Shown piece by piece: positions 5,485 through 25,754 of a DNA stretch of 64,000 bases. This DNA is from a virus. A model generated the notes under the pieces. The model was given only the letters and a program-made list of their open reading frames with translations, had not been told where the DNA came from and ran no database searches. The stretch is taken from IMG/VR virus record IMGVR_UViG_3300025015_000011, positions 32,001-96,000 of that record; one strand, written 5' to 3'. Made by a program: the position numbers and the translations under genes. How positions within the stretch are numbered: the stretch's first letter is position 1; every line of letters starts with the position of its first letter.

Positions 5485-6636
5485 ATGCCAGTAAAGAAGA
5501 TAGTAGAGGGTAAAGTTCCAGCCAAAATTTGGACAGATAATATTGAGGAAGAAGCATTAAAACAAATCTCAAATATTATTGAAAATCTTCCAGTATATTC
5601 TCATTTTGCGGCTATGCCAGATGTACATTGTGGCATGGGAATGCCAATTGGTGGGGTTCTTCCTCTTATAAATGGTATAAGTCCTAATTGTGTGGGGGTA
5701 GATATTGGATGCGGAATGCTTGCAATCAAGCTTAATATTCAAGATATTTCATTAAGTGACCTCAAAAATATATTCACAGAAATAAGAAAAGAAATACCAG
5801 TAGGATTTAATCATAGAAAAGAAAGAGTTAAATGGTATGAGAATCTTATAATTCCTCATTTACCAATAATTGAAAAAGAACTACAATCATCAGAACATCA
5901 AATTGGTACCCTAGGTGGGGGTAACCATTTCATAGAATTCCAAAAAGGTTCTGATGGTCATATTTGGTTTATGATACATTCTGGGTCAAGAAATCTTGGT
6001 AATAAGATTGCTCAGCACTATCATAAGTTAGCGGTAGAACATGGTCAAGTCCCTGGAGATAAAGTTGAATTAGCATATTTTGATAAAAACCATCAAAGTA
6101 CTATATTCAATGAATATTACAGTGCTATGTCTTTTGCTCTTGAATTTGCTTATCTAAATAGAAAAATGATGGCAGATATTGTTTTATCTATAATAGAAAG
6201 AATTCTCAATAAATTTAATTTGAAGTTTAGAGAAATTAATATTCATCATAATTATGCTGAAGAATCATATCATGGAATTTGGTTACACAGAAAAGGAGCC
6301 ACTTCAGCAAAAGAGGGAGAGTGGGGAATAATACCTGGTTCAATGGGGTCCAATTCTTATATTGTTCTTGGTAAAGGAAATAAAGAGAGTTTTGAATCTT
6401 GTGCTCATGGTGCTGGGAGAGTAATGTCTAGAACCAAAGCTAAGAAGAATATAACTTTAGAACAACACCAAGAAGATTTAAGAAGTATAGGCCTTGAGGT
6501 TTCTGAAAGGGATAATTCTTTAGACGAGAGCCCAAGAGCTTATAAAAGTATTAATGAAGTTATGATGAACCAAACAGATTTAGTAGATGTTGTCATTAAA
6601 CTAACACCATACCTATTGCCTGCAATTAAAGGATAA
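5485..6636 (+). CDS. rtcB: RNA 2',3'-cyclic phosphate/5'-OH ligase RtcB
   Basis: MPDVHCG, VGVDIGCGM, GTLGGGNHFIE, HSGSR, HHNYA, HRKGAT, PGSMG, HGAGR. Confidence 0.95.
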   Translation: MPVKKIVEGKVPAKIWTDNIEEEALKQISNIIENLPVYSHFAAMPDVHCGMGMPIGGVLPLINGISPNCVGVDIGCGMLAIKLNIQDISLSDLKNIFTEIRKEIPVGFNHRKERVKWYENLIIPHLPIIEKELQSSEHQIGTLGGGNHFIEFQKGSDGHIWFMIHSGSRNLGNKIAQHYHKLAVEHGQVPGDKVELAYFDKNHQSTIFNEYYSAMSFALEFAYLNRKMMADIVLSIIERILNKFNLKFREINIHHNYAEESYHGIWLHRKGATSAKEGEWGIIPGSMGSNSYIVLGKGNKESFESCAHGAGRVMSRTKAKKNITLEQHQEDLRSIGLEVSERDNSLDESPRAYKSINEVMMNQTDLVDVVIKLTPYLLPAIKG

Positions 6637-13651: not shown

Positions 13652-14575
13652 ATGAGTAAAAGAATGTTTGATAGAAATGCCATGGCAACAGTCCTTTCAA
13701 ATATGGAAAAGGATGCTAAGAATAAGGGATTTAAGCAGGATGAAACACTTTGGACTCCTGACAAGCCAGAAAAGGGCAAGACGCTGATTTATAGATTTAG
13801 GGTTCTTCCTACAATTACAAAGAGAGGTTATCAGCCAGCTTGGGCTGGTTACAAGACTCACTTTTTCAAGTCTCTAGTAACAGGGAAGTTTGTTAATGAG
13901 TATTGCCCAACTACCATAGGAAATCCTTGCCCAATATGTGAATATTCAGGTAAGCTATTTAATACTGGCGACCCAGAAGATGAAAAGATAGCAAAGAAGT
14001 TTTATAAGGCTCAGAAGTTTGTTGCCAACATTCTTGTAGTGAAAGAGCCAGATGAGAAGCGCAAGGAAAATGAAGGTAAGGTCTTCAAGTATGTATTTGG
14101 AACAAAGATTATGGAAAAATTCAAGAGTGCTTTGTTCCCTGAAGAAGGAATGGAGCAGGTTTATTTTATAGATCCATATGAAGGGTTTGATTTTAACCTT
14201 GTTGTTAAAATAGTTGGCGATTTTGCTAATTATGATTCTTCAGTATTTGTAACCACCAAAACGGCAATAGCACAGTCAGATAAGGAAATTGAAAAGATTC
14301 TAAATTCAACATATGACCTTGAAACTGAGTTCCTTTCAGAATCAAACTTCAAGTCTTATGCTAACCTGCAGGAAGTTGTTAATACTCAGATAGTAGGTGC
14401 TTCACCAAAATCGGTTGTTAAGACAAAGCCAGTTTCAATCCCAACAACAGGGCCTGTAGAAGCAGATGATGTTCCTATGTCATTTAATAAGGGGTCTGAA
14501 CCAGAGCCTGAAGTAAATGCAGATGAGGATGATGAATTTCTAAAGTCACTTCAGAGGGATTTAGATAGTCTATAA
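13652..14575 (+). CDS. Single-stranded DNA-binding protein (T4 gp32-like)
   Basis: RFRVLP, H..CPTT...CPIC zinc site, ANILVVK, GKVFKY.FG, YDSS.F, acidic tail. Confidence 0.93.
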   Translation: MSKRMFDRNAMATVLSNMEKDAKNKGFKQDETLWTPDKPEKGKTLIYRFRVLPTITKRGYQPAWAGYKTHFFKSLVTGKFVNEYCPTTIGNPCPICEYSGKLFNTGDPEDEKIAKKFYKAQKFVANILVVKEPDEKRKENEGKVFKYVFGTKIMEKFKSALFPEEGMEQVYFIDPYEGFDFNLVVKIVGDFANYDSSVFVTTKTAIAQSDKEIEKILNSTYDLETEFLSESNFKSYANLQEVVNTQIVGASPKSVVKTKPVSIPTTGPVEADDVPMSFNKGSEPEPEVNADEDDEFLKSLQRDLDSL

Positions 14576-14735
14576 TTTAAAAGAGGGTTGTCGTTAGGAG
14601 CGACTGAGTCATGGAAGTGGGTAGCCTTAAATTATAATCAAGACATAAGACTAGTACGCTGGTGAGCACATGACGCAATTCCAGATATCCATAGTAGGCT
14701 GATTATAAACCCATACAATAGGCCCTCTTTAAATT
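14574..14735 (+). ncRNA. Candidate structured ncRNA with long-range pseudoknot (family unrecognised)
   Basis: GC-richer intergenic region with nested stems 14574-14589/14721-14735, 14590-94/14600-04, 14617-22/14709-14, 14632-40/14700-08, 14650-53/14692-95, 14659-62/14681-84; GTCATG (14608-13) is complementary to loop CATGAC (14669-74). Confidence 0.65.
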
Positions 14736-14750
14736 TATATTAGGAATGAG

Positions 14751-16394
14751 ATGAACAATTATAATCAGTGGATAATGCAACGAGAATATTCTGATAATGA
14801 TTTATATTTTCAGAAAACTAATTCTATATTTAAATATAAACCAAAAATTAGTATTATAATACCAACGTATAATACTAATTTAAAATATTTAACTGAAGCT
14901 CTTGATTCTGTCATTAACCAGACCTATTCTAATTGGGAAATATGTATAGGTGATGGGTCTGACAAAGTAGATGTAAAAGATTTAATATGTAAATATCAAA
15001 AAGTTTATAAAAATATCAAAGCTTCTTTCTTATCTGAAAATAAAGGTATTATAGGCAATTCAAATGAAGCAATTAGGAACGCTACTGGAGATTTCATTAC
15101 ATTTCTTGACCATGATGATACTCTTGCACCATTTGCTTTATTTGAAGTAGTTAAAGAATTGAATAATGATTCTTCATTTGATATTCTTTATTCCAATGAG
15201 GATAAAATAACTAAAGATGGTATAAGATGTAATCCTCATTTTAAACCAGCATGGTCGCCAGATACTTTAAGAAGTTACAATTATATATGTCATTTAGCAG
15301 TTTATAGAACTTCTTTAATAAAAGAATTGGGGGGATTGAGTTCAGGATTTGAAGGGGCTCAAGATTATGATTTAATACTCAGGGCATCAGAAAAAACGGA
15401 TAAAATTCATCATATCAATAAGATACTTTATCATTGGAGAATGATACCAGGGTCTACTGCTTTAGATGGTAATAATAAACCATATGCTTTCGAAGCAGGA
15501 AGAAGCGCAGTACAGGCCCATGTTAAGAGGGTTCTTGGCTCTGCATTTGTATCTGAAGGTTTATTTCCTGGTTCATATGAAGTAAAATATATGATGAAAG
15601 AAACCCCCTTAGTATCGGTAATTATACCTAATAAAAATAATTACTCTACTCTTAAAACTTGTCTAGATTCTATATTTAAGAATACTTATAAAAATTACGA
15701 AATAATAATTCTTGAAAATGGGAGTGTAAATAAAGATATTTGTGATTATTATAATATTCTTTCAAAAGTAGATAATGTCAAAATAGTAGAATGGAAAAAA
15801 GACTACTTTAATTATTCAGAAATAAATAATTGGGGCACTTCATTTGCCTCAGGTGATTATTTCTTATTTTTAAATAATGATATTCAAGCAATAAATGATG
15901 ATTGGCTTGAACGAATGATGGAATTTATTGTTCGTAAAGATGTAGGTGTTGTTGGTGCGAAGTTATATTATCCTAATGATACCTTGCAGCATGTTGGTGT
16001 TATGGTTGGTATGGGTGGAATAGCCGGGCATCCTTTTTGTAAAGCTCAAAAAGATTCATTAGGGTATATGGGAAGAGCTAAAATTATTCAAAATCTTACT
16101 GCTGTAACTGGGGCCTGTTTACTTACAAAAAAAGCAGTTTTCAACGAAGTTGGTGGATTTGATGAAAAATTAGTTCTAGCATTTAATGATGTAGATTATT
16201 CTTGTGCTTCAAGCTCAAGAGGATATAGAACTGTTTGGACTCCTTATGCTGAACTATATCACCATGAGTCACTAACAAGAGGTTATGAAGATACACCAGA
16301 AAAGAAAGAAAGATTTTGGAATGAAGCAAAATATTTTCAACAGAAATGGGTCAAGCTACTCAAGTCTGGTGACCCATATTATTGGAGAGATTAG
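14751..16394 (+). CDS. Two-domain GT2 glycosyltransferase
   Basis: ISIIIPTYN...FLDHDD...GAQDYD; second domain VSVIIPNKN...FLNND...GGFDE..AFNDVD. Confidence 0.92.
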   Translation: MNNYNQWIMQREYSDNDLYFQKTNSIFKYKPKISIIIPTYNTNLKYLTEALDSVINQTYSNWEICIGDGSDKVDVKDLICKYQKVYKNIKASFLSENKGIIGNSNEAIRNATGDFITFLDHDDTLAPFALFEVVKELNNDSSFDILYSNEDKITKDGIRCNPHFKPAWSPDTLRSYNYICHLAVYRTSLIKELGGLSSGFEGAQDYDLILRASEKTDKIHHINKILYHWRMIPGSTALDGNNKPYAFEAGRSAVQAHVKRVLGSAFVSEGLFPGSYEVKYMMKETPLVSVIIPNKNNYSTLKTCLDSIFKNTYKNYEIIILENGSVNKDICDYYNILSKVDNVKIVEWKKDYFNYSEINNWGTSFASGDYFLFLNNDIQAINDDWLERMMEFIVRKDVGVVGAKLYYPNDTLQHVGVMVGMGGIAGHPFCKAQKDSLGYMGRAKIIQNLTAVTGACLLTKKAVFNEVGGFDEKLVLAFNDVDYSCASSSRGYRTVWTPYAELYHHESLTRGYEDTPEKKERFWNEAKYFQQKWVKLLKSGDPYYWRD

Positions 16395-25653: not shown

Positions 25654-25661
25654 ATAATTGA

Positions 25662-25754
25662 TGATGGGTCGACTAAAGGCTCAAAAATAAGTCCTAAGTT
25701 AAGTCACCTCTTCGCGAGAGGAAATGCAGGTGCGAATCCTGTCACCATCAACCA
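25662..25754 (+). tRNA. Aberrant tRNA-like RNA (no normal anticodon loop)
   Basis: Acceptor TGATGGG/C(A)CCATCA, D stem GACT/AGTC with 27-nt loop, stem CCTCT/AGAGG with 5-nt loop TCGCG, T arm GCAGG-TGCGAAT-CCTGT, encoded ACCA. Confidence 0.6.

What the first reader, a model, noticed from the sequence alone, without database searches (positions are those of the whole stretch)
14574..14735. Unrecognised ~160-nt multi-stem ncRNA with long-range pseudoknot after gp32
Seen: almost the whole intergenic region folds. Closing stem AAUUUAAAAGAGGGUU/GGCCCUCUUUAAAUU; hairpin GUCGU-UAGGA-GCGAC; stems GUGGGU/ACCCAU, UUAUAAUCA/UGAUUAUAA, ACUA/UAGU, CUGG/CCAG. The terminal loop CAUGACGCA can pair with junction UGAGUCAUG (8 of 9). 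Several G-U pairs favour the + strand, and it is GC-richer than its flanks. A weak alternative UCAU-GGAA-GUGG hairpin would compete with the pseudoknot. I could not match it to RNase P, SRP, 6S, tmRNA or common riboswitches. Inference: a new phage structured RNA (ribozyme, decoy, or cis-regulator of the downstream glycosylation operon).
Basis: partly seen in the sequence, partly recalled or inferred. Interest (0 to 1): 0.78.

Follow-up and report, generated by a model that had tools for sequence, protein, structure and literature searches.

The report
Insert-riddled tRNA look-alike after gp32
The folded 160-base RNA between two genes of this T4-like phage is most likely a transfer-RNA gene interrupted by three inserts that refold it into a shape that cannot read codons; it has no known relatives, and whether it is a working decoy, a spliced precursor or a dead gene is untested.

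Summary
The helices and the 8-of-9 pseudoknot are present as described, but each is only modestly above chance (MFE z -1.7; 6-bp pseudoknot in 18 of 300 shuffles). There is no Rfam hit and no homologue in any collection, so covariation could not be tested.

The sequence parses as a tRNA body with a CAU anticodon: acceptor, D-arm with GG, anticodon stem and T-arm. It is split by inserts of 31, 11 and 37 nt at positions 33/34, 54/55 and about 65/66. My hand-set parser recovers this unaided: 0 of 2,278 full shuffles and 13 of 2,149 interior-only shuffles score as high.

Supporting context: a related phage has an ordinary tRNA-Glu in the same slot; the element ends in the AAATTT trailer of this phage's tRNA genes; the genome has a second multi-insert tRNA (Leu).

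The joined exons make only a poor, CCA-less tRNA, and I found no BHB motif, splicing endonuclease or self-splicing core. Best reading: a tRNA-derived, non-decoding RNA, akin to T4 rnaC/rnaD and the Lak phage tRNA introns. A dead-gene scar is the main rival. The scan has noted oversized phage tRNA look-alikes on other DNA, but not this sequence.

The parts
13652..14575 (+). gp32 single-stranded DNA binding protein gene; its stop codon overlaps the first bases of the element
   Evidence: PF08804; phrog_224 E 4e-51
14574..14580 (+). AU-rich leader arm that extends the acceptor stem by pairing with 14730-14735
14581..14587 (+). tRNA acceptor 5' strand (positions 1-7); a register shifted by one base (14580-86 with 14724-30) is also possible
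   Evidence: parser; ARAGORN on joined exons
14590..14604 (+).
14606..14612 (+). anticodon stem 5' strand plus positions 32-33 (A32, U33); in the unspliced fold this is the 5' half of the pseudoknot
14613..14643 (+). insert 1 (31 nt) at position 33/34; pairs with insert 3 through 14617-22 and 14632-40
14644..14663 (+). CAU anticodon, A37, A38, anticodon stem 3' strand, 4-nt variable loop, T-stem 5' strand ending G52-G53, U54
14664..14674 (+). insert 2 (11 nt) in the T-loop at 54/55 (or 56/57); its CAUGAC forms the pseudoknot with 14608-14613
   Evidence: 27 of 2000 shuffles pair as well
14675..14685 (+). rest of the T-loop (GCAAUU) and T-stem 3' strand with C61-C62
14686..14722 (+). insert 3 (37 nt) between T-stem and acceptor; pairs with insert 1 and with the anticodon-stem 3' strand
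14723..14729 (+). acceptor 3' strand; no encoded CCA
14731..14736 (+). AAATTT trailer, as after 4 of the 6 other whole tRNA-like genes of this genome (background 0.6-0.7% of positions)
14751..16394 (+). double GT2 glycosyltransferase, first gene of the glycan operon
5485..6636 (+). RtcB RNA ligase, a candidate ligase if the inserts are removed
25660..25753 (+). a second aberrant tRNA-like gene in the window (expanded D-loop, 5-nt anticodon loop, encoded CCA)

Best explanation
The element is a tRNA gene with a CAU anticodon (Met or Ile2 type) that has taken up three inserts and now gives a non-decoding, tRNA-derived RNA. Shown from sequence and computation: the four exon blocks map without gaps onto tRNA positions 1-33, 34-54, 55-65 and 66-72; the predicted fold keeps the acceptor, D-arm and T-stem; the anticodon stem is replaced by insert 1-insert 3 helices, an insert 3-exon helix and the pseudoknot. 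Inferred: it is co-transcribed with gp32 and the glycosyltransferase operon (no promoter or terminator of its own was found) and cut out at the AU-rich arms like the phage's other tRNAs. The pseudoknot would tie the T-loop insert to the strand just after the D-arm, which could keep a tRNA-like elbow while the anticodon is buried. The most likely job is a stable decoy or sink for host tRNA-handling or tRNA-attacking proteins, not decoding. That job is a guess; the tRNA origin alone I put at about 0.75.
For: A generic parser allowing inserts in six places returns this parse unaided at 15.4 bits, against -15.7 for the reverse strand. 0 of 2,278 full shuffles reach it, and 13 of 2,149 with acceptor and D-arm fixed. 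With a profile learned from 29 phage tRNAs, 6 of 4,694 interior shuffles match both the conserved-base score and 19 of 21 pairs. ARAGORN at a relaxed threshold draws the joined exons as tRNA-Met(cat), 'possible pseudogene'. The same slot holds a canonical tRNA-Glu (71.8 bits) in a relative. The AAATTT trailer is shared with the phage's tRNA genes. The genome has a second multi-insert tRNA-like gene, also CCA-less with a T-loop insert at 54/55, whose exons join into tRNA-Leu(UAA). Relatives have further oversized tRNAs. The insert-paired fold is 8 kcal/mol more stable than the best fold keeping the anticodon stem.
Against: No homologue was found, so there is no covariation and no proof of selection. 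The parser is my own, hand-set and written after I saw the parse. Across about 5,000 overlapping genome windows, two coding regions score higher (18.4, 21.8) and several reach 13-15. The conserved-base score is only 4 bits against 23-48 for real tRNAs, and 121 of 4,694 shuffles reach it. Insert 1-insert 3 pairing alone is not significant (186 of 2,000). The Rfam tRNA model does not ring on the unspliced element. There are no expression data, and nothing tests the decoy role.
Confidence: 0.45

Rival explanations
1. A dead tRNA gene: a pseudogene scar built by nested insertions and short inverted or tandem duplications, folded because the duplications are self-complementary, with no function.
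For: Core tRNA bases R9, A14, R15, A21, R26 and Y32 are lost. The element is absent from all relatives examined, and the slot content varies. The genome also has a broken tRNA-Asn and a partial tRNA-Gly copy. Insert 2 resembles a tandem repeat of its flanks (sequence). A nested reading is possible, with an inner acceptor 14611-17/14686-92 pairing 6 of 7.
Against: Both displaced anticodon-stem strands find a new partner in an insert, the T-arm bases are intact, and the ensemble is unusually well defined. The genome is otherwise tightly packed.
Confidence: 0.22
2. One reading: a structured RNA unrelated to tRNA (new ribozyme, aptamer or cis-regulator of the glycosylation operon), the tRNA parse being coincidence.
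For: The fold is well defined and has a pseudoknot. The tRNA score is low and some coding windows equal it. The hairpin loop holds an SD-like AGGAG before an 8-codon ORF at 14611, and 14698-14708 could pair with GT2 codons 3-7.
Against: It does not explain the tRNA spacing, the T-arm bases, the trailer or the tRNA in the same slot of a relative. GT2 orthologues lack the element upstream. The switch helix has probability 0.0007. No ribozyme or riboswitch family matches.
Confidence: 0.15
3. A multi-intron pre-tRNA: proteins cut out all three inserts and the phage RtcB re-joins the four pieces into a working tRNA(CAU), with CCA added afterwards; the insert helices keep it locked until then.
For: The exons join into a cloverleaf with CAU in the anticodon position. 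RtcB is encoded. The Leu counterpart joins into a near-canonical tRNA. No other CAU tRNA was found in the genome. Introns of unknown mechanism are known in Lak phage tRNAs (PMC6784885).
Against: No strict bulge-helix-bulge at any insert (at most 3 of 4 central pairs, flanking helices incomplete). No tRNA splicing endonuclease. The inserts are far too short for group I introns (established knowledge). The joined product lacks six core bases.
Confidence: 0.1
4. Chance folding of a neutral spacer, perhaps a terminator-like outer stem with filler.
For: MFE z is only -1.7; other spacers in the genome reach -4 to -10. Relatives have simple hairpins after gp32.
Against: The tRNA parse, the trailer and the slot all point the same way, each at roughly 1% or less. 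The terminator scan finds nothing here.
Confidence: 0.08

Closest known systems
T4 small stable RNAs rnaC and rnaD (species 1 and 2; NC_000866 70908-71171)
   Same: Oversized (119-139 nt) RNAs of unknown function in a tRNA cluster of a T4-type phage (PMC9697503). rnaC has a T-arm and scores 15.8 in my parser, like this element.
   Different: rnaC keeps an intact T-arm with a canonical UUCGAAU loop near its 3' end, and rnaD encodes CCA. Here the T-loop is split, 37 nt separate T-stem from acceptor, there is no CCA, and no sequence likeness was found.
'Enigmatic' tRNA introns of Lak megaphages (Devoto et al. 2019, PMC6784885, Table S6)
   Same: Phage tRNA genes enlarged by anticodon-loop inserts with no Rfam match and no known removal mechanism.
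   Different: The Lak examples read have one 79-114-nt insert near position 37 containing its own tRNA-like T-arm, and near-canonical exons. Here there are three shorter inserts in three places that pair with each other and with exons, and the exons are degenerate.
Multi-intron tRNAs of Thermoproteales (BHB introns at non-canonical positions; PMC4090602)
   Same: Up to three short inserts in one tRNA, including T-loop positions.
   Different: They need BHB or relaxed BHB motifs and the splicing endonuclease; neither was found. The host here is bacterial, judging by sigma70-type promoters.
Group I introns in bacterial tRNA-fMet(CAU) at 33/34 (from my own knowledge)
   Same: Insert 1 sits at the same position, after U33 and before CAU.
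   Different: 31 nt cannot hold a group I core; there is no P7 G-C binding pair and no Rfam match.

Membership tests
canonical tRNA | four arms at tRNA spacing | tested here: inconclusive
   met only after removing three inserts: 19 of 21 pairs; not met in the unspliced sequence
canonical tRNA | invariant core bases (U8, A14, R15, G18-G19, A21, Y32, U33, R37, G53-C61, C56, A58) | tested here: not met
   U8, G18-19, U33, A37, C48 and the T-arm bases are present; R9, A14, R15, A21, R26, Y32 and U55 are not; 4 bits against 23-48
canonical tRNA | 3' CCA, encoded or added | tested here: inconclusive
   not encoded; addition cannot be tested
archaeal multi-intron tRNA | bulge-helix-bulge at each intron | tested here: not met
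   (strict BHB, boundaries slid by up to 3 nt)
archaeal multi-intron tRNA | splicing endonuclease available | tested here: not met
   PF01974 absent from the phage; host unknown
group I tRNA intron | P3-P7 core, about 200 nt or more | tested here: not met
   inserts 11-37 nt; no Rfam hit
Lak-type tRNA intron | single anticodon-loop insert containing a nested tRNA-like element, with intact outer exons | tested here: not met
   a nested acceptor can be drawn (6 of 7 pairs) but the outer 3' half would then have no T-arm; compared with Table S6
T4 rnaC/rnaD-like oversized tRNA look-alike | location in a tRNA slot of a T4-type phage, no usable anticodon arm | tested here: met
   tRNA-Glu at the same slot in a relative; anticodon loop split
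T4 rnaC/rnaD-like oversized tRNA look-alike | sequence or structural homology to rnaC/rnaD; intact T-arm next to the 3' end | tested here: not met
T4 rnaC/rnaD-like oversized tRNA look-alike | stable, discrete transcript | not testable with these tools
tmRNA | tRNA-like domain with G3-U70 and a tag reading frame | tested here: not met
   ARAGORN finds none; no G3-U70 pair in either register
retron msr-msd | adjacent reverse transcriptase | tested here: not met
   no PF00078 in the genome
MITE / IS end | several copies in phage or host genomes | tested here: not met
   single copy in the genome; one 21-mer gave no match in genome contigs
RNase P, SRP, 6S, known riboswitches and small ribozymes | match to the Rfam covariance model | tested here: not met

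The most novel reading that the evidence does not exclude
This phage clade keeps some tRNAs as locked precursors: several short inserts at distant positions pair with each other and with the exons to hide the anticodon and break the cloverleaf, and are later removed without a BHB motif or ribozyme, with RtcB re-ligation. That would be a multi-intron tRNA splicing route that I found no description of in bacteria or their viruses.
Probability: 0.1. Interest if true: 0.88.

Novelty: new variant of a known kind. Interest (0 to 1): 0.5.

Why it matters
Oversized tRNA-like RNAs of phages (T4 rnaC/rnaD, Lak tRNA introns) remain unexplained, and standard tRNA finders miss this one completely. The phage carries two genes in which a tRNA body is split at three or four places, including the T-loop, alongside an RtcB ligase. 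The pair gives a direct test: RNA reads across the predicted junctions would separate splicing from a decoy RNA from a dead gene. If spliced, it is a new tRNA maturation route. If stable and unspliced, it shows how a tRNA scaffold can be rewired into a new fold.

Tried and rejected
Rfam at gathering and E<=10: nothing credible. blastn against 50,697 phage records: chance hits only. A one-sequence covariance model over the own genome, 160 gp32 loci and the closer relatives found no homologue; it is a weak model, so absence is not proof. Closer relatives sought with gp32, GT2 and capsid proteins gave at best 53-58% identity (gp32, GT2) or short contigs. Retron rejected, no reverse transcriptase. 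MITE rejected, single copy. Rho-independent terminator and own promoter not found. No ORF of note in six frames. Group I, RNase P, 6S, HEARO/IS605-end, pistol and hatchet resemblances were considered by eye from memory and dropped for lack of core motifs and Rfam support. A switch onto the GT2 start was rejected on pairing probability. One genome-wide parser run timed out; the reruns stopped at about 81% (+) and 98.5% (-) of the genome. Literature searches found no description of multi-insert phage tRNAs, in a library that lacks most subscription papers.

Full report
Setting. The window lies in a 166,689-bp, 32.5% GC T4-like phage record. The finding fills the 175-nt gap between gp32 (13652-14575) and a double GT2 glycosyltransferase (14751-16394), downstream of the clamp loader genes and regA. 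It occurs once in the genome and is identical in an independent ENA assembly.

Checking the observation. The pseudoknot pairs 8 of 9. Against dinucleotide shuffles each feature is only mildly unusual: MFE z -1.7, ensemble diversity in the lowest 3% or so, and a 6-bp loop-junction helix in 18 of 300 shuffles. GC content equals that of the gp32 3' end and exceeds only the downstream flank. Rfam has no match. No promoter or terminator stands out at the element.

Homologue search. blastn, seven exact-pattern scans over three collections and a one-sequence covariance model over about 1.3 Mb of related loci found no homologue. The nearest gp32 relatives are 53% identical or less.

What the slot holds elsewhere. 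In relatives with the same regA-gp32-GT2 order the spacer is 0 nt (L003), a 57-nt hairpin (L001), a small ORF, or a canonical tRNA-Glu(UUC) flanked by complementary AU-rich arms (L134/L135). The slot is therefore variable and can be a tRNA slot. An earlier scan note (e1-5697543) pointed to a tRNA-Leu-like gene with several inserts elsewhere in this genome. I checked it: its exons join into a tRNA-Leu(UAA) that ARAGORN calls at a relaxed threshold, it lacks CCA, and one insert lies at T-loop position 54/55.

The tRNA parse. Read against a cloverleaf, 14581-14612 gives positions 1-33: acceptor strand, two-base linker, 4-bp D-stem with a GG loop, one base, anticodon-stem strand. 14644-14663 gives 34-54: CAU, A37, A38, stem, 4-nt variable loop, T-stem ending GG, U54. 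14675-14685 gives 55-65, and 14723-14729 the acceptor 3' strand. The inserts are 31, 11 and 37 nt.

How strong the parse is. A parser allowing inserts in any of six places returns this parse unaided at 15.4 bits after penalties. No full shuffle out of 2,278 reaches it; 13 of 2,149 do when the acceptor and D-arm are held fixed. With a profile trained on 29 phage tRNAs the conserved-base score is 4 bits (real tRNAs 23-48); 121 of 4,694 shuffles reach that, and 6 reach it together with 19 of 21 pairs. The parser is hand-set and was written after I saw the parse, and two coding regions of the genome score higher when four inserts and longer windows are allowed. A separate clue is the trailer: AAATTT follows within four bases of the acceptor here, in four of the six other whole tRNA-like genes of the genome and in the relative's tRNA-Glu, against 0.6-0.7% of background positions. 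Together I put a tRNA origin at about 0.75.

How it most likely works. The predicted fold keeps the acceptor, D-arm and T-stem and replaces the anticodon stem. Insert 1 pairs with insert 3 over 15 bp, insert 3 takes the anticodon-stem 3' strand, and insert 2 takes the 5' strand as the pseudoknot. This fold is 8 kcal/mol better than the best fold keeping the anticodon stem. The joined exons are rated only a possible pseudogene and lack R9, A14, R15, A21, R26 and Y32. There is no BHB motif, no splicing endonuclease and no room for a group I core, although RtcB is present. I infer an unspliced, non-decoding tRNA-derived RNA, released from the gp32-glycan transcript at its AU arms and most plausibly acting as a decoy for tRNA-binding or tRNA-cutting host proteins (0.45). 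Rivals: functionless scar (0.22), unrelated regulatory or catalytic RNA (0.15), spliced multi-intron pre-tRNA (0.10), chance (0.08). Expression, processing and function are all inferred, not shown.

Comparison with known systems. It works most like the oversized tRNA look-alikes of T4 (rnaC, rnaD; function unknown per PMC9697503), but is not homologous to them and lacks their intact 3' end. It shares an anticodon-loop insert with Lak phage tRNAs (PMC6784885) but has three mutually pairing inserts. It resembles archaeal multi-intron tRNAs in layout (PMC4090602) but fails their defining motif. Relatives carry other enlarged tRNAs (L134 2653-2828, L006 19415-19531), so the clade is prone to them. 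Earlier scan notes describe oversized phage tRNA look-alikes in other genomes; I did not check those and do not count them as support.

Verdict. A real but orphan feature, reinterpreted from 'new pseudoknotted RNA' to 'tRNA body split by three inserts'. New variant of a known kind; interest 0.5.

Noticed in passing
G000:C1 146677-146485 (-), locus L307: tRNA-Leu(UAA) body with inserts at 26/27, 31/32, 38/39 and 54/55, no CCA; the exons join into an ARAGORN-callable tRNA; no Rfam or full-length phage match.
   Followed up: partly
L134:2653-2828 (= L314:6333-6507): About 175-nt tRNA-like RNA with canonical acceptor, D- and T-arms but hugely expanded anticodon and variable arms, no CCA, directly behind a sigma70-type promoter in a tRNA cluster.
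   Followed up: partly
L006:19415-19531: tRNA-like gene with a 43-nt structured insert in the anticodon loop (Rfam tRNA 44 bits).
   Followed up: no
window 25660-25753 (+): tRNA-shaped gene with a duplicated D-loop segment, 5-nt anticodon loop and encoded CCA; below the Rfam cut-off.
   Followed up: partly
G000:C1 24701-24771 (+), 135909-135989 (-), 7593-7655 (-): tRNA-Gly and tRNA-Tyr missed by default ARAGORN but found by Rfam; tRNA-Asn broken at the T-loop, with a partial Gly copy about 0.8 kb on.
   Followed up: partly
window 14594-14637 (+): SD-like AGGAG in the D-loop, 10 nt before an AUG that opens an 8-codon ORF; GGA motifs at 14597, 14613 and 14743 resemble CsrA sites (sequence).
   Followed up: no
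window 14630-14640 and 14757-14767: An 11-nt direct repeat lets 14698-14708 pair alternatively with the start of GT2; predicted probability 0.0007.
   Followed up: yes
L002:9794-10000: 207-nt spacer between regA and gp32 in a relative, with apparent stems; not analysed.
   Followed up: no
G000:C1 24937-25050, 116752-116970, 164004-164108: Strongly folded spacers (z -6 to -10), each containing a TATAAATA late-promoter box.
   Followed up: no
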